Notes: generated by a model not told the origin, from the letters alone. 64,000 nucleotides of DNA from Methyloprofundus sp. (GCA_012960135.1 DUBW01000040.1:185-64184), one strand, 5' to 3'. Numbered from the stretch's first letter, positions 6,387-49,660 are shown. Program-made: numbers and translations.

Positions 6387-6548
6387 TAAGGAACCCGCAC
6401 GGAATAAGTTGAGCATCTGGCACAGGGTTTTTATTCGCATTCAAGGCATAGAATCAGGAGCATAGCTCGCTACGTAACAGTTTCCGCACCACAGAAGACG
6501 GATAAAAAGACAAGTCAGTTGCTTAAATTATTTCGTGCACGCTCCTAA
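6387..6548. repeat. ~162-bp palindromic MITE-like element
   Basis: Imperfect terminal IRs TAAGGAACCCGCACGGAATAA and TTATTTCGTGCACGCTCCTAA, plus an internal IR (TTTTTATTCG / CGGATAAAAA). Confidence 0.6.
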
Positions 6549-6579
6549 TGCAAATAAAGTAATTTTTATACCTCATGTC

Positions 6580-6729
6580 TTACCAGATAATTCCGACAGC
6601 AACAATTGACACCACAAAACATAGGGTCGCTAAGTCTTCTATGGCATGTAATAGCCAGTGCTGTTGATCCTGCATAATCATATCAATTCGATTGGTAATT
6701 TGATCTTGCATATGAATTTTATGTTGCAT
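6580..6729 (-). CDS. unannotated 49-aa protein with C-terminal TM helix, immediately downstream of lexA
   Basis: GGAG RBS 7 nt before ATG; MQHKIHMQDQITNRIDMIMQDQQHWLLHAIEDLATLCFVVSIVAVGIIW*; below the size range of the ORF track. Confidence 0.6.
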   Translation of the reverse strand: MQHKIHMQDQITNRIDMIMQDQQHWLLHAIEDLATLCFVVSIVAVGIIW

Positions 6730-6742
6730 TTTAGTTCTCCTA

Positions 6743-7369
6743 TTAATTAATATAACTACGCATTTGTCCGACTAAAACACCTTGTATTTCCACTTGTTCA
6801 GGTCTGTATTTCATAGCAGACATATTTGAATTCGCTGGAATGAGTAATGTTTCATGCGGGTATTGCTCAATAAACTTTAAAGTCGCCTCTGATTTCTCTA
6901 TTAAAGCGACGACAATTTCACCGTTACGTGCACAACTTCTTTGCTCAATAATGACCCAGTCACCGTCAAAAATCCCCTCCTCTATCATTGAGTCCCCTTT
7001 TACTTGCAGGATATAACAAGTCTTATCAGTTTTAATCTGCTCGGGAATATTAATATAACTAATTTGTTCAATTGCTTCTATCGGCCTACCTGCAGCTATA
7101 AAACCCACAAAAGGAGTTCCTGCCGACTCATCACTAGCTTGTAAATATTGCTTCGCCTGTTCCGTTAGCCTGATACCTTTTTGCTTGCGATCAGATGATT
7201 CAACCAGGCCTGCTTCAATCAGCGCTTTAATATGTTTATGTAACGACCCCCGTGAATTTAAACCCAGTGCACTACAGACCTCATCTAAGGTGGGTGGATA
7301 GGGAAAATCCTTGTGGTTATTGAGCAGAAATTCAAAAATATCCTGCTGTTTTCGCGTTAAACCATTCAT
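6743..7369 (-). CDS. lexA: LexA repressor
   Basis: wHTH (LTRKQQ..PPTLDE..LHKHI), cleavage site GFIAAG, catalytic Ser (GDSM) and Lys (ATLK); start placed at ATG 7369 after a GGAG RBS. Confidence 0.93.
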   Translation of the reverse strand: MNGLTRKQQDIFEFLLNNHKDFPYPPTLDEVCSALGLNSRGSLHKHIKALIEAGLVESSDRKQKGIRLTEQAKQYLQASDESAGTPFVGFIAAGRPIEAIEQISYINIPEQIKTDKTCYILQVKGDSMIEEGIFDGDWVIIEQRSCARNGEIVVALIEKSEATLKFIEQYPHETLLIPANSNMSAMKYRPEQVEIQGVLVGQMRSYIN

Positions 7370-7373
7370 TTCT

Positions 7374-7424
7374 GTTCTCCTTTTGTTTTGTTGCAAGTAT
7401 AGTAGGAGAACAAATAAAGAACAA
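7374..7424 (-). promoter_or_regulatory. lexA sigma70 promoter with GTTC-N7-GTTC-type operators
   Basis: Minus strand TTGTTC-N17-TATACT; perfect GTTC-tttattt-GTTC at 7408-7422 overlaps the -35; second near-match at 7374-7388 overlaps the RBS. Confidence 0.7.
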
Positions 7425-7570
7425 GGTTATTTTGCAATTTATTTATATTTTCCCTCAAACTATCCGTTATTGGCTTTATGAGTTAGCAACCCACTAATAA
7501 TATAGCCATGGTAAAATTATTTTATCTAGGCCCATTCACCTAATAATGCCTCATTACACGGATTTTTGAC

Positions 7571-9340
7571 TTGATACAGATTGATCTTTTAGCCGTCGCT
7601 TTAATACTTCCGTGTTCTTTATTTCTGCTCGCCAGCAATCGTTTTCCTGCCGACAGTATCTTATTGGGTGTGTTGAGTTTGTTACTTATTGGTGGCATAT
7701 TAACCCCCTCAGAAGCTCTCTCTGGATTTTCCAGCCCAGGCGTGGCAACCATCGCGGTACTCTATGTCACCGTGGCAGGATTGCGCGAAACAGGTGCTAT
7801 TGCATGGTTAGGTCGCCTGCTCCTGGGACGGCCTGCGAATATGTCTCTAGCATTGATACGTTTGCTGTTACCTGCCGCAACTATTAGTATGCTTATAAAC
7901 AACAGTCCTGTGGTTGCGATGTTTACCAGTGCAGTGCAAGACTGGAGTAAACGTAGTGGATATAGTGCTTCACATTTTCTATTACCGCTTAGTTATGCAT
8001 CCATCATGGGTGGAACCTGCACTCTGATCGGTACGAGTACCAACCTTGTTGTCGATAGTTTAATGCGCCAATCTGGTTATCCCGGCTTTGACTTATTTGC
8101 AATTGCTGCAGTTGGATTACCCATAACCATCGCTGGCTGCCTATATCTTATTGTTTTAGGACCCTATTTAATTTCGGAGCGTAAGGGAGCCATTGAGCAA
8201 TTCAGTGATGTTCGCGAATACCTGGTAGAAATGTTAGTGAAACCGAATTGTGAACTATCAGGGCAAACCATACAGGATGCTGGCCTGCGTCATTTACCCG
8301 GACTGTTTTTAATAGAAATCGTGCGCGATGGCGAAATTATTCCAGTTGTATCACCACAAACGGTTATTCATACTAATGACCGGTTGGTATTTGCGGGTGC
8401 AGTCGATTCAGTAGTTGAACTACGTCGTATCCGCGGTCTGGTGATTGCGACAGATCAGGTATTTAAACTGCAAGGACGTGATCATGAGCGGCGTATGTTT
8501 GAAGCTGTTATCTCTGCAGAAAGTCCGGTTGCCGGGCGTAATATACGCGAGGCTCGCTTTAGACATCGGTATAATGCCGTTATTTTGTCTATTGCCCGCA
8601 ATGGTTACCGCTTAAAAGGAAAAATTGGTGATATCGTGCTACAAGCCGGTGATACATTATTGCTCGAAGCACAAAAAGGATTTCTATTTAAATTTCGTAA
8701 TAGCCGGGATTTTTTGCTGGTTAGCCGATTAGAAAACTCCCAAAATCTACGTCATAATCGTGCCTCCTGGGCGATTGGCATCATGGTCTTAATGGTCATA
8801 CTTATCATTAGCGGCACTATGAATATACTATCCGCTGCTGTGTTAGCTGCCGGTACTATGTTGATTAGTGGCTGTTTAAATATGGAAATTGCGCGTACTA
8901 GTATCGACTATAAAGTGTTACTTGTGATTGCCTGTGCCTATGGACTGGGAACGGCAGTACAAAAAGTGGGGCTTGCCGATTTGCTTGCTGCCCAGGGCCT
9001 GTTAATTGCTAATGGTAATCCTCTAATACTGCTGGCAATAGTCTATATTGCCACTGCATTATTAACCGAAACGATTACCAATAACGCAGCCGCTATTGTC
9101 ATGTTCCCTATCGCCATGAGTGGTGCGCAAAGCCTGGATGTCAACACAGCACCCTTTGCTGTTGCCGTCATGATTGCCGCTTCTGCCAGTTTCGTGACCC
9201 CCACGGGCTATCAAACCAACCTAATGGTCTTTGGCCCTGGAGGATATCGCTTTAGCGACTATGTAAAACTAGGCCTGCCACTCAGTCTATTAGTTGCCTG
9301 TATAGCGCTGTGGATTATTCCTCAGGTATGGTCATTTTAA
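7571..9340 (+). CDS. SLC13 family permease with TrkA-C domains (possible sulfate/carboxylate transporter)
   Basis: GFSS..V.TIA, INNSPVV, GGTCTLIGTSTNL, two RCK-C-like soluble domains, TPTGYQTNLMV. Confidence 0.9.
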   Translation: MIQIDLLAVALILPCSLFLLASNRFPADSILLGVLSLLLIGGILTPSEALSGFSSPGVATIAVLYVTVAGLRETGAIAWLGRLLLGRPANMSLALIRLLLPAATISMLINNSPVVAMFTSAVQDWSKRSGYSASHFLLPLSYASIMGGTCTLIGTSTNLVVDSLMRQSGYPGFDLFAIAAVGLPITIAGCLYLIVLGPYLISERKGAIEQFSDVREYLVEMLVKPNCELSGQTIQDAGLRHLPGLFLIEIVRDGEIIPVVSPQTVIHTNDRLVFAGAVDSVVELRRIRGLVIATDQVFKLQGRDHERRMFEAVISAESPVAGRNIREARFRHRYNAVILSIARNGYRLKGKIGDIVLQAGDTLLLEAQKGFLFKFRNSRDFLLVSRLENSQNLRHNRASWAIGIMVLMVILIISGTMNILSAAVLAAGTMLISGCLNMEIARTSIDYKVLLVIACAYGLGTAVQKVGLADLLAAQGLLIANGNPLILLAIVYIATALLTETITNNAAAIVMFPIAMSGAQSLDVNTAPFAVAVMIAASASFVTPTGYQTNLMVFGPGGYRFSDYVKLGLPLSLLVACIALWIIPQVWSF

Positions 9341-18076: not shown

Positions 18077-18277
18077 AAATTACTTTTCCCTTATTAGGTC
18101 ACAGCATAAGAAAGGCCCAACATCTTTAAAAGGCGTAAGTTTGTTTATCCAAGAAAAAACAAAGCTCTTTGTAAGTGTTGGTTTTTGGAACTTGAGAGTT
18201 ATTCTAAAATATTGAGTATAGTTGTATTCATAGCGATTCTACGTGCGGGGCGAGCCATCATCATAATCAAGCCATGC

Positions 18278-18576
18278 GAGGGGCCCCTCCTTTTTCGAAA
18301 GTTCATTTTGGGCACCCTAGCCCACAACGCGGCAAAAGCTGAACGGGACTGATTAAAATCTATGATGCCCTGATTCGCCCTGCGGCCACTAAATAAAAAT
18401 CCTAGAGGGGTTTTTATTTAGTGGCCGCAAATGGCTTGACGTGATGTCGGAATGCCTTGTATTTTCTCTACGCAAAAAGACGCTTCGAGAAAACACCCGG
18501 CCCTATCGCTATCAGGGACTAAAAATCTTCACTTCGCTTAAGCTCCGTTTCCAGGATTTTCAGCGGTAGAATTATT
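18278..18576. repeat. diverged copy (A) of a ~300-nt structured non-coding element
   Basis: Shares ordered blocks with 44687-44999 and 49206-49509; contains an 18-bp perfect hairpin at 18382-18428. Confidence 0.75.
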
Positions 18577-41923: not shown

Positions 41924-44590
41924 ATGACGGACAAGAATATAAATATGAATGAAAATGTAACAATATCAACAACCTGCCCATACTGTGGTGTGGGCTGTGG
42001 TGTTTTAGCGACTAACAAACCAGATGGCACCATTAGTGTGGAAGGTGATCAATCTCATCCTGCCAACTTGGGTAGATTATGTTCAAAAGGCTCAGCATTA
42101 GCTGATACTATTGGTCTAGATGGTCGATTACTTCATCCTCAAATAAATGGTCAACAAACTTCGTGGGATGAAGCATTAGATGCCGTTGCGACTGGTTTTC
42201 AAAAGGTGATTGATGAACATGGTCCAGATGCGGTGGCATTTTATGTCTCAGGTCAGCTATTAACTGAAGATTATTATGTGGCTAATAAGCTAATGAAAGG
42301 CTTTATTGGTAGTGCCAATATCGATACTAACTCTCGTTTATGTATGTCCTCTGCTGCGGCGGGTTATAAACGTGCTTTCGGTAGTGATTCCGTACCTTGT
42401 AGTTATGAAGACTTAGAAAAAGCAGATCTCATTGTTATCGAAGGTTCTAATACAGCGTGGTGTCACCCCGTTGTTTATCAACGTATTAGTAAAGCAAAGC
42501 AAGATAATCCTAATTTAAAGATTATCGTTATTGACCCTCGCAAAACGGCTACTTGCGATATCGCCGATTTACATTTATCTCTTAAACCGGGAACTGACGC
42601 TACATTATTCAATGGTTTATTACGTTATTTAAACCATAGTGATGTGATTGACTGGGATTTTGTTAATCATCATACAGAAGGTTTTTCTGATGCTTTATTA
42701 TCAGCACAAGACTCAGATCTTAATGTGGTTCATGTTGCACAGACGTGTGAACTAGGCAGCCATGATGTTGAGCTGTTTTTTCAACTATTTGCGGACACTG
42801 AAAAAGTGGTCACGCTATACTCTCAAGGCGTGAATCAATCTTCTTCAGGTACGGATAACTCAAATAGTATTATCAATTGTCACCTTGCAACAGGTCGTAT
42901 TGGTAAACTAGGGATGGGACCATTCTCAATTACGGGTCAACCTAATGCCATGGGTGGGCGTGAAGTAGGGGGCTTATCAAACCAACTTGCTGCTCATATG
43001 GAGTTGGAAAATCTAAAACACCACGATTTAGTTTCTCGTTTTTGGAATACAGATAATCTAGCATCAACGGCTGGCGCTAAAGCTGTCGACATATTTAATG
43101 ATGTTGCTAGCGGCAAGATAAAAGCGATTTGGATCATGGCAACAAACCCAGTGGTGACCTTACCTGATGCAGATAAAGTACGTGCTGCATTACAGGCGTG
43201 TGAGCTGGTTGCTGTGTCAGATTGTGAACAAAACACCGATACCACGGCTTGTGCCGACATCTTATTGCCAGCATTAGCTTGGGGCGAAAAGTGCGGAACA
43301 GTGACTAACTCCGAACGTCGTATTTCACGTCAACGTAACATCTTAGCTCACCCTGGTGAAGCAGAAGAAGATTGGTGGATAATCAGTCAAGTAGCTGAGA
43401 AACTAGGTTTTAAAGAACAGTTTAATTACGCATCAAGTGCTGATATTTTCCGTGAGCACGCTGCTTTATCAGGTTTCGAAAATGATGGGAAACGTGATTT
43501 TGATATTAGTGGTTTAGCCACATTAAGTGATGAACAATACCATCAACTTCAACCGATACAGTGGCCAGTAACAACTGCAAATCCACAAGGTACGGAGCGC
43601 TTATTTACTGACAAACAATTCTTTACACCAACGGGAAAAGCACAGTTTATTGCCATCACACCTCGACCACCGGTTAATGCAACAAACGAAGACTATCCTT
43701 TAGTATTAAATACAGGTCGAGTTAGAGATCAATGGCATACCATGACGCGTACTGCTCGCAGTGCGAAACTGAATGGCCATATCCCCGAGCCCTTTGTTGA
43801 AATTCACCCCCTTGATGCTGAAAAATGGTCAGTAGAACAAGGTGCCTTGGCTCAAGTTGATAGTCTATGGGGAACCCTGTTAGCACGTGTGCAGATTACT
43901 GATACTCAAAGAGTGGGTAGTATTTTTGTGCCTATGCATTGGAATAAGCAGACAGCTTCATTGTCTAGGGTTGATGCCGTAGTCAATCCCGTGGTTGATC
44001 CCATATCGGGTCAACCAGAATTTAAACATACACCGGTTAAGATTAAAACTTATCAGGCAGTGTGGCATGGCTTTATTTTATCTAGAACACGATTAACCCT
44101 ACCTGATACACACTACTGTGTATCTATTAAAGGAGAACAATTCTGGCGTTATGAGCTCGCGGGGGATGCAACGATTGATAATTATTCTGCGTGGGCAAAA
44201 CAGCAAATAGGTCAAGAGGGAGAATGGTTAGAGTTTGCTGACCAAACAGCACAGCGTTTTCGTGCTGGCATGATTAAACATGATCTGCTTGATGCAGTAG
44301 TATTTGTTGCTCCTAATCATGAATTACCTACACGAACATGGTTAAGTCAATTATTCACAGAGTCACCTTTAAGTGATGAAAGCCGGTCAAATTTACTTGC
44401 CGGTAAGCCAGGGGCAAATCAACCCGATGTCGGTGCTTTAGTCTGTGCTTGTTTTGGTGTGGGTGAAAATACAATTAAAGATGCCATTTCCTGTGGTGCA
44501 GCTAAATCTATTGAAGATATTGGCAAGCAACTTAAAGCAGGGACAAACTGTGGCTCATGTATCCCAGAGATCAAAAAATTATTTAGTTAA
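41924..44590 (+). CDS. nasA: assimilatory nitrate reductase catalytic subunit
   Basis: TCPYCGVGCG, LCSKG, NIDTNSRLCMSS, GQPNAMGGREVG, molybdopterin C-domain, C-terminal BFD [2Fe-2S]. Confidence 0.96.
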   Translation: MTDKNINMNENVTISTTCPYCGVGCGVLATNKPDGTISVEGDQSHPANLGRLCSKGSALADTIGLDGRLLHPQINGQQTSWDEALDAVATGFQKVIDEHGPDAVAFYVSGQLLTEDYYVANKLMKGFIGSANIDTNSRLCMSSAAAGYKRAFGSDSVPCSYEDLEKADLIVIEGSNTAWCHPVVYQRISKAKQDNPNLKIIVIDPRKTATCDIADLHLSLKPGTDATLFNGLLRYLNHSDVIDWDFVNHHTEGFSDALLSAQDSDLNVVHVAQTCELGSHDVELFFQLFADTEKVVTLYSQGVNQSSSGTDNSNSIINCHLATGRIGKLGMGPFSITGQPNAMGGREVGGLSNQLAAHMELENLKHHDLVSRFWNTDNLASTAGAKAVDIFNDVASGKIKAIWIMATNPVVTLPDADKVRAALQACELVAVSDCEQNTDTTACADILLPALAWGEKCGTVTNSERRISRQRNILAHPGEAEEDWWIISQVAEKLGFKEQFNYASSADIFREHAALSGFENDGKRDFDISGLATLSDEQYHQLQPIQWPVTTANPQGTERLFTDKQFFTPTGKAQFIAITPRPPVNATNEDYPLVLNTGRVRDQWHTMTRTARSAKLNGHIPEPFVEIHPLDAEKWSVEQGALAQVDSLWGTLLARVQITDTQRVGSIFVPMHWNKQTASLSRVDAVVNPVVDPISGQPEFKHTPVKIKTYQAVWHGFILSRTRLTLPDTHYCVSIKGEQFWRYELAGDATIDNYSAWAKQQIGQEGEWLEFADQTAQRFRAGMIKHDLLDAVVFVAPNHELPTRTWLSQLFTESPLSDESRSNLLAGKPGANQPDVGALVCACFGVGENTIKDAISCGAAKSIEDIGKQLKAGTNCGSCIPEIKKLFS

Positions 44591-44686: not shown

Positions 44687-44999
44687 AAACGGGGAGTCGC
44701 TATTTTTGCGAAAGCTTGTTTTGGGCATCCCAGCCCAAGCAAGCGGCAAAAACTTAACGCGACCACTAATGCCTCCGGCGCCCCAGATGTCCTGCGTACG
44801 TGCCACTTCGCCACTACCATCGTAAACTCGGCGCTGGCTTCGTAACACTCCCTCAAATGACTGGACGGCGTTTCGGAATGCCTTTTTTTTTGTCTCCACC
44901 TACGCTAGCGCTACGATTCCGACAAAACAACGGCCCTACGCCTTCTGGGGACTACCAGCCCTCGCGTTCGCTCTCCATAGCTGGCAGCGGTAGATTATT
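44687..44999. repeat. copy B of the ~300-nt structured non-coding element
   Basis: About 12 differences from 49206-49509; GC-rich, multiple hairpins. Confidence 0.9.
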
Positions 45000-45273: not shown

Positions 45274-46740
45274 ATGTCTGCACAAAAGTTAAAACTATTA
45301 TCATTTAGTGGTAATACCAAAATCCTTCATCTAAGTTGGATGGCTTTTTTCATTAGTTTTGTTGTTTGGTTTAATCATGCGCCATTACTAATTGCAATAC
45401 AGCAGACACTTGGTCTTACTGATCAACAAATAAAAACAATCTTAATTCTTAATGTTGCATTGACTATTCCTGCCCGAATTGTTGTCGGGATGTTAGTTGA
45501 TAAATTTGGCCCAAGAATTACTTTTCCCTTACTACTTGGTGTTTCAAGTATTATCTGTTTCTTCTTTGCTTTAGCCCAAAATTTTGAACAATTAGCTGTT
45601 GCTCGTTTTATGCTTGGTTTTGTAGGTGCTGGTTTTGTTATCGGAATTAGAATGATTTCAGAATGGTATCCAGCTAAACAAGTTGGTCTAGCAAGTGGTA
45701 TTTATGGTGGTTTGGGTAACTTTGGTGCAGCTGGTGCAGCTGTCTCTTTACCTACGATTGCACTGATGTTTGGTGGTGACGATGGCTGGCGTTATGCGGT
45801 TGCGTTAACAGGTGTTATTGCACTTATCTATGCCTTCATTTACTACAATGCAGTATCAGATACTCCAAAAGGGTCAACATACTTTAAACCTAAAAAATCA
45901 GGTGGCTTAGAAGTAACCAGTAAAGGTGACCTTTATTTTTACTTATTCATGAACATTCCAATGTATGCAGCCTTAGCTGTACTTGCATGGAAACTATCGC
46001 CAAGTGGTGTTAGCTTATTAACGGCTGAAGTGGTACAAGCTATTTATATCGGTTTGTTTGCCCTGTATTTTTATCAGGCTTACCACATCTACCAAGTAAA
46101 CAAAGAAATCTTTGTTAAAGCGGTGCCAACCATTCATCGTTACAAATTTAAACAAATTGCTGTGTTAGATTTAACCTATATGGTTGCATTTGGTTCAGAG
46201 CTAGCTGTTGTATCAATGTTGCCTTTATTCTTCTTTGAGACCTTTCAGATCAGTGCAGTTCAAGCGGGTATCTTGGCATCAAGTTTTGCCTTTATGAACC
46301 TAGTGTCACGTCCAACAGGTGGCTGGTTGAGTGACCGTTTTGGTCGTAAAAATGCACTTAGCATTTGTATAGCCGGCTTGTCTATTGGGTATTATGTGAT
46401 GAGCCAAATTACCTCTGAATGGTCCATTGCTCTTGCGGTGTTAGCATCAATGGCATGTGCTTTCTTTGTTAATGCTGGCTGTGGAGCTGTGTTTGCCGTT
46501 GTTCCATTAGTACAACGTCGTTTAACTGGGCAAATTGCAGGTATGGCAGGTGCTTACGGTAATATTGGCGCCTTGGTTTTCTTAACTATTTTGTCTTTAG
46601 TTACAACTGAAACATTCTTTTTAGTGATTGCGGCAACAGCAATTGTGACATTATTAGCAGTTCAATTTATGGATGAACCAAAAGGCCAAATGGCTGAAAT
46701 TCTACCTGATGGCACAGTTCAAATGATTGACGTAAACTAG
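45274..46740 (+). CDS. narK: MFS nitrate/nitrite transporter (NarK/NasA family)
   Basis: Nitrate signature [32 protein letters not shown]. Confidence 0.92.
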
Positions 46741-48569: not shown

Positions 48570-48838
48570 GTAACTACTCAGCGAAGCTGAGTAGTTCAAT
48601 GAAATTATAAAGAAAATCCAGGTAACTTCCTCTCAAAGACCAGCGTCATTGCCTCAGTTGCACTGCCGCCCTGTTGTCGGCAAGTTGATAAATAACCTCT
48701 GACACGACAAAACATCTCGGCGCCCTGGGTACTGCGAAAACAGCCCCATATTTTCTGTTGAACTTTGGTCATACGAATCGAATTTCCAGCGGCATTATTG
48801 GTAAAGGATACGTAGCCATTTGTCATAAAGCGCAGCCC
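48570..48838 (-). mobile_element. IS66-family transposase 3' remnant with right end
   Basis: LRFMTNGYVSFTNN.A..IRMTKVQQK..GCFRS..GAEMFCRVRGYLST; ends at GCTGAGTAGTTAC (48570-48582), with a duplicated IR forming a hairpin. Confidence 0.82.
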
Positions 48839-48839
48839 C

Positions 48840-49205
48840 CCCCTGTGTCAGGATAGTTATCACCATAAACAAATGCTGAGATTCTTCCACCGTTACAATA
48901 TCAGGAATACGCACGGTTTTAGGAGGCCTGATTAATTGGAGATCTGTCCAGGTTTTTTTGTAATACCTGTGTATAAAAAAACTTCAGTCCATAAAGACCC
49001 AGTTTAACCGCACTCCAGGACAAACGATCAAGTAAATCATGAAAATAATCCAGTAATTGAACCTGGGTTAAATGCTCTAACTGATAGTTGAAATACTCAC
49101 CAACACGCCACATTGCGCAGGAGTATGCATCAATCGTCCTGGGTTGCAGACCCTTCAACATAAGATGTTTGCAGTGTAACTCATACTGACGATTGAAATG
49201 TGCTG
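48840..49205 (-). pseudogene. N-terminal fragment of a tyrosine recombinase of the type paired with IS91-like transposases
   Basis: HLMLKGLQPRTIDAY..DYFHDLL..SWSAVKL.LYGLKFFY, frameshift to LIRPPKTVRIPDIVTVEE, then fused to the IS66 remnant. Confidence 0.78.
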
Positions 49206-49509
49206 AAACGGGGGAGTCGCTATTTTTGCGAAAGCTTGTTTTGGGCATCCCAGCCCAAGCAAGCGGCAAAAAATTAACGCGACCACTAATGCCTTCGGCG
49301 CCCCAGACGTCCTGCATACGTGCCACTTCACCACTACCATCGTAAACTCGGCGCTGGCTTCGTAACACTCCCTCAAATGACTGGACGACGTTTCGGAATG
49401 CCTTTTATTTTGTCTCCACCTACGCTCGCGCTCCGATTCCGACAAAACAACGGCCCTACCCCTTCTGGGGACTACCAGCCCTCGCGTTCGCTCTCCATGG
49501 CTGGCAGCG
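49206..49509. repeat. copy C of the ~300-nt structured non-coding element
   Basis: Direct repeat of 44687-44990; directly upstream of the integrase fragment on the minus strand. Confidence 0.9.
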
Positions 49510-49660
49510 AATGAAGTTTTCATTGCCTTGTAAGCTCATGCGTTTTTGTAGAGATTACACATTCCCTTTGATGAGCAATAATAGGTAATGAGGTGACAAA
49601 TTACTGGATGGAGCTGTTTTTCTCCGCGATAGCGGCTTCGTCCAACAACAAATATTACGC

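What the first reader, a model, noticed from the sequence alone, without database searches (positions are those of the whole stretch)
44687..44999. Copy B/C folds with strand asymmetry pointing to a minus-strand structure
Seen (44800-44848, minus strand): GUGUUAC/GUGGCAC, a symmetric GAA/GAA internal loop, GCCA/UGGC, then GCCG/UGGU. The four G-U pairs would be A-C mismatches on the plus strand. One B-to-C change converts G-C to G-U, keeping the pair. Known: GA-rich symmetric loops are common RNA motifs. Inference: the minus strand is the functional one, the same strand as the integrase that follows copy C.
Basis: partly seen in the sequence, partly recalled or inferred. Interest (0 to 1): 0.7.

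Follow-up and report, generated by a model that had tools for sequence, protein, structure and literature searches.

The report
Structured mobile repeat with topoisomerase-type target
The hairpin is real, but it is one arm of a 300-base, heavily folded "jumping" DNA repeat found in hundreds of bacterial genomes, which encodes no protein and always lands exactly four bases after a C, the known cutting signature of the cell's own topoisomerase I.

Summary
The hairpin at 44800-44848 (minus strand) is exactly as described. Alone it is not significant. It is the variable central arm of a 301-nt element (44689-44989). About 65 copies lie in this 2.5-Mb genome. Related copies occur in 182 of 301 sampled genomes of the same order, and in about 8% of sampled genomes of the class outside it. 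Rfam has no match.

About ten helices over the whole length show compensatory changes between subfamilies. G-U cells outnumber A-C cells 110 to 29. The minus strand folds better in 17 of 17 representatives. So the minus strand is the folded one.

The "integrase" is not a partner: copy C is inserted into codon 5 of the recombinase gene of a decayed IS91-type element.

Insertions are exact, without duplication or inverted ends. No longer coding version and no recurrent neighbouring gene was found.

The 5' flank has C at -4 (226 of 263; 39 of 40 in a second family), with consensus T-C-N-T-T|T/A. This matches the published cleavage motif of bacterial topoisomerase I.

Best reading (about 0.45): a single-stranded DNA element joined at type IA topoisomerase sites. 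Rivals are an HUH transposase acting in trans, or an RNA intermediate. RNA-seq was unavailable.

The parts
44689..44989 (-). Copy B: complete 301-nt element, 5' CGCUGCCAGC ... GCGACUCCCCGU 3' on the minus strand. G+C is about 57%, against about 40% in the genome.
   Evidence: The ends are defined by about 40 aligned copies with unrelated flanks. It matches covariance model R1 over its full length. Composition.
44800..44848 (-).
   Evidence: Hairpins of other sequence stand at the same place in all 17 representatives.
44951..44988 (-). 5' hairpin P1 (GCUGCCAGCU ... GGGCUGGUAGU), with a G-U pair that is invariant at its base.
   Evidence: CCAGCY/GGGCUGG is replaced by AAAAUC/GAUUUU in other families. 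Four of its 7 pairs show changes on both sides, and G5-U48 is present in 17 of 17.
44696..44764 (-). 3' domain: helix GUCGC/GCGAC enclosing UUUUUGC/GCAAAAA and the hairpin UUGGGC-UGGGAU-GCCCAA. A 7-nt unpaired tail UCCCCGU follows (44689-44695).
   Evidence: GUCGC/GCGAC becomes GUCCC/GGGAC or UGCCGC/GCGGCA in other families. This is the most conserved part across the class.
44990..44993 (-). Target bases 5' of copy B: C-T-A-C, with C at -4 (window 44993).
   Evidence: The rule holds in 226 of 263 unique flanks.
49208..49509 (-). Copy C: 302 nt, 96% identical to B, inserted after codon 5 of a tyrosine-recombinase gene. The flank is CATT|, with C at -4 (49513).
   Evidence: The joined flanks restore the reading frame of the homologues.
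18276..18565 (-). Copy A: a member of the diverged family F2 (about 12 loci in this genome), 5' CGCUGAAAAUCCUGG ... GGGGCCCCUCGC 3'.
   Evidence: 280 bits against R1.
48860..49643 (-). Not part of the element. This is a decayed IS91-family element hit by copy C. Its left end GGACGAAGCCGCUAUCGCGGAG starts at 49643, right after the dnaE stop. The recombinase start codon is at 49523-49521. The recombinase frame is frameshifted and then cut off by an IS66 fragment (48605-48826).
   Evidence: Pfam Phage_int_SAM_4 and DDE_Tnp_IS66. The same left end and the gene order recombinase-Y2 transposase are seen in G007 and G009.

Best explanation
Window 44689-44989 is one copy of a widespread, protein-less, non-autonomous mobile element of about 260-310 nt.

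Shown:
- It is mobile.
- Its insertions are exact.
- The fold is under selection on one strand.
- The target has C at -4.

Inferred:
- The element moves as single-stranded DNA of the folded strand.
- Its 5' junction is cut and rejoined by a type IA topoisomerase, most simply the host's own topoisomerase I. That enzyme cuts single-stranded DNA four bases 3' of a C and stays bound to the new 5' end.
- The enzyme-activated 5' end of the element is joined to the 3'-OH of a cleaved target (...TCNTT-3'OH).
- The element's 3'-OH end attacks the enzyme-linked 5' end of the downstream target.
- The fold would keep the two ends together, with a roughly 10-nt single-stranded junction between the 3' domain and P1, and would present that junction to the enzyme.

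Odds: that it is a mobile element folded on one strand, about 0.9. That a type IA topoisomerase is the catalyst, about 0.45.
For: Mobility:
- There are about 65 loci in the own genome and hundreds of candidate matches in two relatives (508 and 233 first-look candidates), while some same-genus genomes hold only weak or diverged matches.
- Genomes often carry several identical copies.
- Two copies 94-96% identical to F1 lie in a genome of another family.
- Copies lie on two methanotroph plasmids.

Exact insertion:
- Joined flanks match uninterrupted paralogous sequence. In 23 of 28 cases the ambiguity is 0-1 base.
- There are no inverted ends.

Structure:
- fold_alignment gives 43 pairs, 22 of them compensatory.
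- For a 55-pair structure, 96.1% of cells pair and 23 pairs (95 cells) have changes on both sides. No shuffle of 500 reaches this, and slid controls pair at 41-49%.

Strand:
- G-U cells number 110 against 29 A-C cells, and 17 of 17 representatives fold better on this strand.

Target:
- C at -4 in 226 of 263 unique flanks. T is preferred at -5, -2 and -1; G is depleted at -1; T/A is preferred at +1.
- C at -4 in 39 of 40 flanks of the independent family F5.
- In other gammaproteobacterial families: 14 of 20 at the model boundary, and 5 more if the boundary moves one base.

Published enzyme behaviour:
- Bacterial topoisomerase I selects a C four nucleotides 5' of the cut (PMC3467081).
- In vivo the E. 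coli motif is TCNTTA/T, cut four nucleotides after the C, with the enzyme on the 5' end (PMC9352719).

No partner gene:
- No version with both ends around an ORF was found.
- No recurrent ORF lies next to 36 loci from different genomes.
- IS91 transposase is absent from 6 of 15 genomes with at least 6 full-length, equally scoring copies.

The folded strand and the strand that carries the C(-4) motif are the same.
Against: - No transposon is known to use a type IA topoisomerase. Every known element with exact, duplication-free, asymmetric insertion uses an HUH or other dedicated enzyme.
- Y1 (IS200/RAYT) genes are present in all 17 genomes tested, so a trans-acting HUH enzyme cannot be excluded.
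- The rule 'C at -4 of the element's own 3' end' holds in F1, F2, F3, F5 and G350. It fails in the SV96- and G495-type families, which end ...CACUAUCG|. How the 3' end is made is therefore unexplained.
- With DNA parameters the F1 central hairpin does not form in isolation. Invariant G-U pairs are more typical of RNA.
- No replication-strand bias was seen, as might be expected for single-strand targets (p = 0.41).
- If the universal host enzyme suffices, the patchy host range needs another explanation.
- Nothing here is experimental.
Confidence: 0.45

Rival explanations
1. Same element, ordinary chemistry. It is a non-autonomous passenger of an HUH single-strand transposase (an IS200/IS605 TnpA, a RAYT-like domesticated enzyme, or an unrecognised relative) that acts in trans. 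The enzyme would recognise the terminal hairpins and cut 3' of a loosely defined tetranucleotide beginning with C.
For: - The element has no inverted ends, makes no duplication, has hairpins next to both ends and inserts exactly. These are the hallmarks of IS200/IS605 and their PATE derivatives.
- Y1_Tnp genes are in 17 of 17 genomes tested.
- In the own genome two loci (C19, C86) carry the inverted last 37 nt of the element. At C19 this lies about 120 nt upstream of a RAYT-like gene.
- HUH enzymes also make 5'-phosphotyrosine links, so the polarity fits equally well.
Against: - IS200/IS605 targets are fixed tetra- or pentanucleotides read by a guide inside the element. Here only one base is fixed.
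- The surrounding preferences reproduce the topoisomerase I motif.
- No autonomous copy with these ends was found in the loci held here (about 115 pattern-derived loci plus the own genome). The roughly 700 genomes scanned with the full-length model gave only matches of about 205-310 nt; a copy split by an ORF would not score as one match.
- Of 16 RAYT-like loci, only 3 have an element within 2.5 kb.
- The number of Y1 genes does not track the number of elements. G012 has 44 Y1 hits and only diverged copies.
Confidence: 0.3
2. The folded molecule is RNA. The element is transcribed, the RNA fold is the selected object (a retroelement template, a ribozyme, or a guide or decoy RNA), and new copies arise through an RNA intermediate.
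For: - Structure is conserved with compensatory changes over the entire length, not only at the ends.
- There are 8-13 G-U pairs in each family consensus, and one G-U pair is invariant.
- A few copies are truncated at the 5' end.
- Reverse transcriptase genes are in 13 of 17 relatives.
Against: - No promoter lies in or upstream of copy B.
- Insertions are exact, without the duplications or deletions typical of target-primed reverse transcription.
- There is no sense bias in genes (11 against 13), so it does not behave as an intron.
- There is no Rfam match to any ribozyme, intron or guide-RNA family at E < 0.1-1.
- Four element-bearing relatives, three with clear matches (G014, G020, G006, G008), have no RVT_1 hit.
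- Truncation also occurs at the 3' end.
Confidence: 0.12
3. A family of chromosomal small-RNA genes or cis-regulatory structures (for example CsrA-sponge-like RNAs with GGA loops) that has merely been duplicated.
For: GGA motifs lie in or next to loops of several hairpins in F1 and SV96 (sequence). The structure is conserved.
Against: - Positions are not syntenic between genomes, and no neighbour gene recurs.
- Copies interrupt transposase genes in both orientations.
- Copies within a family decay neutrally.
- The GGA loop of P8 is GUA in F2.
- There is no promoter.
Confidence: 0.05

Closest known systems
IS200/IS605 family and its non-autonomous PATE derivatives (HUH Y1 transposase, single-strand 'peel and paste')
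   Same: Asymmetric ends without inverted repeats, no target duplication, hairpins near both ends. Insertion is exact and lies 3' of a short motif on the strand that carries the hairpins. Excision is precise. The chemistry uses a 5'-phosphotyrosine link.
   Different: The target is a single fixed base (C at -4), not a fixed tetra- or pentanucleotide. The whole 300 nt is structurally constrained. No autonomous relative with the same ends was found.
REP/REPIN elements with their RAYT transposase
   Same: Non-coding, folded, dispersed by the tens to hundreds. Persistent across a clade without an obvious autonomous IS.
   Different: REPINs are symmetric pairs of 20-40-nt palindromes with a GTAG/CGTC tag, and they flank the RAYT gene. 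This element is 300 nt, asymmetric and multi-helical, and does not regularly flank RAYT-like genes.
IS91/ISCR and Helitron-type rolling-circle elements (HUH Y2)
   Same: No inverted repeats and no duplication. The 5' flank and the element's 3' end can share a short motif. An IS91-type element is present in the window.
   Different: IS91 targets are GTTC/CTTG (established knowledge). The IS91-type copies here sit after (T/C)GTT. Y2 transposase is absent from 6 of 15 genomes with fresh copies.
HEARO / IscB-TnpB omega RNAs
   Same: Structured non-coding units of about 300 nt that occur in many copies and are mobile.
   Different: There is no Rfam HEARO match and no adjacent nuclease ORF in 36 loci.
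Cleavage specificity of bacterial topoisomerase I (type IA)
   Same: A C four bases 5' of the break, an AT-rich TCNTT|A/T context, a single-stranded substrate, and the enzyme on the 5' side (PMC3467081, PMC9352719).
   Different: Topoisomerase I is known to reseal its own break. Transfer of a defined mobile element by it has not been described.
Integron attC sites and other recombination sites read as folded single strands
   Same: One strand is recognised by shape, and sequence is free to covary.
   Different: attC sites are 57-141 nt, lie in arrays next to IntI and recombine at GTT. This element is dispersed, and the only recombinase nearby is an IS91 passenger gene that the element interrupts.

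Membership tests
Classical MITE | Terminal inverted repeats | tested here: not met
   The ends CGCUGCCAGC... and ...GCGACUCCCCGU are not inverted copies of each other, and the repeat finder reports no arms at the ends.
Classical MITE | Target-site duplication | tested here: not met
   28 pairs of filled and empty sites: 14 with no overlap, 9 with one base.
IS200/IS605-derived PATE | No inverted repeats, no duplication, subterminal hairpins | tested here: met
IS200/IS605-derived PATE | Insertion 3' of a fixed tetra- or pentanucleotide | tested here: not met
   Only C at -4 is fixed (1.27 bits). Every other position carries at most 0.13 bits.
IS200/IS605-derived PATE | An autonomous relative with the same ends encoding TnpA | tested here: not met
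   No pair of 5' and 3' parts was found around an ORF. The only split copies hold an IS110 or an IS200 with unrelated ends.
REPIN-RAYT system | The RAYT gene is flanked by the repeats | tested here: inconclusive
   3 of 16 RAYT-like loci have an element within 2.5 kb. Two own-genome loci carry an inverted 37-nt 3' fragment, one of them upstream of a RAYT-like gene.
IS91-family derivative | A Y2 transposase is present wherever the element is active | tested here: not met
   Absent from 6 of 15 genomes with at least 6 identical copies, and from G002, which has hundreds of candidate matches.
Group I/II intron or IStron | Ribozyme core recognisable; sense orientation inside genes | tested here: not met
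   No Rfam hit at E < 1. 11 sense against 13 antisense.
IscB/TnpB omega RNA (HEARO) | Match to the family model, and a nuclease ORF next to at least some copies | tested here: not met
Structured non-coding RNA gene | A discrete transcript of the folded strand | not testable with these tools
There is no promoter-like site in or upstream of copy B on the minus strand.
Structured non-coding RNA gene | Secondary structure kept through compensatory changes | tested here: met
   The same is expected for a folded DNA strand.
Substrate of type IA topoisomerase | C four bases 5' of the joint, in a TCNTT|A/T context, on the transferred strand | tested here: met
   against PMC3467081 and PMC9352719.
Substrate of type IA topoisomerase | Cleavage and strand transfer by the enzyme | not testable with these tools
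   This needs biochemistry or genetics.

The most novel reading that the evidence does not exclude
This would be a new class of bacterial transposable element that encodes nothing and is moved by the host's essential topoisomerase I. A folded single strand of about 300 nt captures the enzyme's cleavage-religation cycle, so that the element is spliced into any transiently single-stranded TCNTT|W site. That would explain three things: why no transposase partner exists, why the whole element (not just its ends) is under structural selection, and why the family spans many gammaproteobacterial families.
Probability: 0.45. Interest if true: 0.95.

Novelty: new variant of a known kind. Interest (0 to 1): 0.8.

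Why it matters
- The family is large (most genera of one order, plus scattered families across the class). It has no match in Rfam release 15, and three literature searches of the held library turned up no description. Where an annotated record was checked, nothing was annotated under the match.
- It breaks assemblies: N runs and contig ends fall inside copies. It inflates symbiont genomes and disrupts genes.
- Its target rule makes a long-standing idea directly testable, namely that topoisomerases can drive illegitimate recombination in vivo. The published R169A-type change, which shifts the enzyme's preference from C to A at -4, predicts a shift in the insertion sites.
- If the catalyst is instead an unrecognised HUH enzyme, the element is still an unusual case of a mobile DNA whose entire length is shaped by single-strand folding.
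- For the original finding, the useful corrections are these. The strand call is right. The evidence offered for it was not informative. The integrase is a victim, not a partner.

Tried and rejected
- 'Variable middle between conserved ends'. This was an artefact: the middles are runs of N, i.e. assembly gaps.
- Integrase as partner. It is unique in the genome, absent near about 115 other loci, and interrupted by copy C.
- IS91 element as parent. Its ends differ, and its transposase is missing from many genomes with fresh copies.
- IS200 next to a copy in G011. It is an insertion into a copy and has unrelated ends.
- IS110 inside a copy (L049) and beside one (G015). These are secondary insertions.
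- RAYT flanking. It is not regular.
- Copy number of Y1 or reverse transcriptase genes against element load. No relation was found.
- Intron-like behaviour. There is no sense bias.
- Replication-strand bias. None was found (p = 0.41).
- Rule that truncated copies break after internal CNNN. It held in 2 of 4 clear cases, which is uninformative.
- Rfam at gathering and at permissive thresholds on the window and on 7 loci. Nothing was found at the element.
- Phage collection. No match.
- E. coli genomes. No match.
- Literature searches for a described repeat in methanotroph symbionts, or for topoisomerase-driven elements. Nothing relevant was found.

Full report
**What is at the coordinates.**
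The stretch 44689-44989 is a G+C-rich island (about 57% against about 40% around it) between the stop of an assimilatory nitrate reductase gene (41924-44590) and a nitrate/nitrite transporter gene (45274-46740). Read on the minus strand, positions 44848 to 44800 give GUGUUAC-GAA-GCCA-GCGCCGAGUUUACGAUGGUAG-UGGC-GAA-GUGGCAC. Copy C has UGGU for UGGC.

On one sequence it is not statistically remarkable:
- z = -1.9 for the central segment with RNA parameters.
- With DNA parameters the isolated 49-mer prefers another fold.
- z = -1.7 (minus strand) and -1.1 (plus strand) for the whole element.

**It is a dispersed repeat.**
- A self-search finds copy C (49208-49509, 96% identical) and a diverged copy A (18276-18565).
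- In the whole 2.5-Mb assembly, 81 BLAST pieces group into 61 loci, and a profile search groups into 65.
- Several copies sit at contig ends. Many are interrupted by runs of N. These first looked like a variable middle but are assembly gaps.
- The ends are sharp: 5' CGCUGCCAGC and GCGACUCCCCGU 3'. There are no inverted terminal repeats.
- A second family of about 12 loci (F2, to which copy A belongs) has the same length and order of blocks but about half of the sequence is different.

**Distribution.**
- A 27-nt pattern from the 3' end hit more than 116 stretches of public genomes. Nearly all are methanotrophs of one order: gill symbionts of Bathymodiolus mussels with very many copies, and Methylobacter, Methylomonas, Methylicorpusculum, Methylocucumis, Methyloglobulus and others.
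- Methylobacter tundripaludum SV96 has several copies 100% identical over 284 nt (two fetched; G160, whose copy coordinates match that record, shows six equally scoring copies), in unrelated intergenic places.
- Among 20 relatives the load ranges from hundreds of candidate matches (G002, G011) to weak or diverged matches only within the same genus. A genome of another family holds two copies 94-96% identical to family F1.
- A full-length covariance model (R1: 289 positions, 55 pairs) finds the element in 182 of 301 sampled genomes of the order, in 51 of 63 genera. It usually finds several equally scoring copies per genome.
- The same model finds it in 33 of 400 sampled genomes of the class. 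Thirty of these lie outside the order, in about 27 families, with full-length matches.
- Rfam release 15 has nothing at these places, even at E < 0.1-1.
- Two methanotroph plasmids carry it, with no feature annotated under the match in the one record that is annotated. No phage record does.

**The fold.**
Comparing families shows compensatory replacement helix by helix:
- P1: CCAGCY/GGGCUGG against AAAAUC/GAUUUU.
- The long-range helix: CCCCAGA/UCUGGGG against CCCUGAU/AUCAGGG.
- GGCGU/ACGCC against GCGAU/AUCGC.
- UUUUGUC/GACAAAA against UUUUCUC/GAGAAAA and UUUUCAC/GUGAAAA.
- GCC-GGA-GGC against AUC-GUA-GAU.
- GUCGC/GCGAC against GUCCC/GGGAC and UGCCGC/GCGGCA.

On a 17-sequence alignment (A2):
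- RNAalifold predicts 43 pairs, 22 with changes on both sides.
- For a 55-pair structure, 96.1% of cells pair, and 23 pairs (95 cells) have changes on both sides.
- None of 500 shuffles reaches any of four measures. Sliding the partners by 1-3 columns drops pairing to 41-49% and the covariation score from 0.364 to about 0.06.

Every representative has a hairpin there, with unrelated sequences: for example GUUGGAUACCC-CUUGCU-GGGUAUCCAAC in SV96 and a long A/U-rich hairpin in F2.

**Which strand.**
I selected covarying pairs from folds of both strands, treating G-U and A-C alike. The 36 pairs selected hold 110 G-U cells and 29 A-C cells. The strand corresponding to the window's minus strand has the lower folding energy in 17 of 17 sequences, by 15 kcal/mol on average. 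The family consensus sequences give the same result.

Within families, however, departures from the consensus pair go to G-U and to A-C equally: F1 26 against 24, F2 23 against 17, F3 28 against 57. Inserted copies thus drift neutrally, and the single B-to-C change carries no information.

**The integrase.**
- The frame after copy C matches Pfam Phage_int_SAM_4. It is followed by an IS66 fragment.
- It is the only such gene in the genome and is absent next to the other loci.
- Intact homologues in relatives G007 and G009 are the first gene of IS91-family units: recombinase, then Y2 transposase. In G007 these units stand in tandem. Their left end GGACGAAGCCGCUAUCGCGGAG also stands in the window at 49643, right after the dnaE stop.
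- The recombinase start codon lies upstream of copy C (49523-49521).
- Removing copy C in silico gives MKTSFSAHFNRQYELHCKHL, colinear with MKPSLESKYNHYYSLHCKHL and MTPSIELKFNHYYIQHCKHL.
- Copy C is therefore an exact insertion into that gene. Its orientation there is a coincidence: elements inserted in ORFs lie sense 11 times and antisense 13 times.

**How it inserts.**
In the B. japonicus symbiont many copies sit inside other repeated sequences. Uninterrupted paralogues then serve as empty sites. Joined flanks align end to end, with 0 bases of ambiguity in 14 of 28 cases and 1 base in 9. There is no duplication and no loss.

The 3' flank shows no signal. The 5' flank does:
- C at -4 in 226 of 263 unique flanks (1.27 bits).
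- C avoided and T preferred at -5.
- T preferred at -2 and -1, and G nearly absent at -1.
- T or A preferred as the first base after the element.

A separate 260-nt family (F5: CGCUGUCAGCCC...GGCGCGCCUG) has C at -4 in 39 of 40 flanks. Copies in other gammaproteobacterial families have it in 14 of 20 at the model boundary, and in 5 more if the boundary of one subfamily is moved by one base.

In F1, F2, F3, F5 and G350 the element's own last four bases also start with C (CCGN|, CCUG|). In the SV96- and G495-type families they do not (...CACUAUCG|).

**Search for a partner.**
- No copy with both ends around an ORF exists in the data held. The only split copies contain an IS110 (L049) or an IS200 with unrelated ends.
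- No ORF family recurs next to 36 loci from different genomes.
- Y1 transposase genes are in 17 of 17 genomes, and reverse transcriptase genes in 13 of 17. Neither count relates to element load.
- Y2 (IS91) transposase is absent from G002 and from 6 of 15 genomes with at least six identical copies.
- RAYT-like genes are not regularly flanked by the element. Two own-genome loci do carry an inverted 37-nt 3' fragment of it, one of them upstream of a RAYT-like gene.

**The clue.**
A single required C four bases 5' of the joint, in the context T-C-N-T-T|T/A on the strand that folds, is the published cleavage specificity of bacterial topoisomerase I.
- In vivo mapping in E. coli gave the motif TCNTTA/T. 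The cut lies four nucleotides after the C. The substrate is single-stranded DNA. The enzyme is bound to the 5' end, and the 3' end is left free (PMC9352719).

This polarity is what an insertion at the element's 5' end needs. It also explains why the 5' junction of every copy, being a former target, remains a cleavage site.

In the consensus fold, the 7-nt 3' tail and the first 3 nt are unpaired. A circularised or end-juxtaposed element would thus offer a 10-nt single-stranded junction between two helices.

I therefore rank a topoisomerase-I-dependent, single-stranded DNA mechanism first (about 0.45). A trans-acting HUH transposase comes second (about 0.3) and an RNA-mediated route third (about 0.12).

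Weak points:
- There is no precedent for such a mechanism.
- The origin of the 3' end in some families is unexplained.
- No replication-strand bias was seen.
- The G-U-rich F1 arm folds with RNA but not with DNA parameters.

**Verdict.**

The object is a member of a large family of folded, protein-less mobile elements for which I found no description. Its target rule points to the host's topoisomerase I. At the least, this is a new variant of the single-strand transposon theme. If the topoisomerase reading holds, it is a new kind of element.

Noticed in passing
window 48605-49643 (minus strand): A decayed IS91-family element lies directly after the dnaE stop. It keeps its left end and a recombinase gene that is interrupted by copy C, frameshifted, and then truncated by an IS66 transposase fragment. 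The Y2 transposase gene itself is gone.
   Followed up: yes
window 44867-44891 (plus strand): On the plus strand, copy B offers a hairpin GGCGUUUCGGAAUGCC followed by nine U, about 280 nt after the nitrate reductase stop. This is a terminator-like site made by the element. Other copies have UUUUAUUUU there.
   Followed up: no
L171 (G011:C202) 2178-2440, and many loci of the B. japonicus symbiont: A second, about 260-nt family (F5: CGCUGUCAGCCCCGGACGGGCUGAUAGUC ... GGCGCGCCUG) has the same 5' architecture, dozens of copies and the same C(-4) target rule.
   Followed up: partly
L049 4137-5444; L158 (G015) 6434-7610: One IS110-family element is inserted inside a copy, and another lies 165 nt from the 5' end of a copy. 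IS110 elements may use these repeats as targets.
   Followed up: no
own genome C19:33789-34253 and C86:3363-3399: The last 37 nt of the element, inverted, lie about 15 nt from a shared GGGUCAGAC motif. At C19 this is about 120 nt upstream of a RAYT-like (Y1) pseudogene.
   Followed up: partly
L111 3135-2829 (B. japonicus symbiont): A chimeric copy has the 5' hairpin of the F2/F3 type and the central arm of the F1 type. The subfamilies exchange modules.
   Followed up: no
own genome, many contigs (e.g. C11:7600-7696, C16:8475-8629): Runs of N sit inside copies and several contigs end in copies. The repeat is a main cause of the fragmentation of this assembly.
   Followed up: partly
L188 (G007:C1:15086-19964): Two IS91-type units of 2441 bp stand head to tail and are 100% identical, as expected from rolling-circle transposition. 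That genome has 77 Y2 transposase hits.
   Followed up: no
own contig C40 (window and 6 kb beyond): All five copies on this 100-kb contig lie in the same (minus) orientation. Genome-wide there is no significant link to GC skew.
   Followed up: partly
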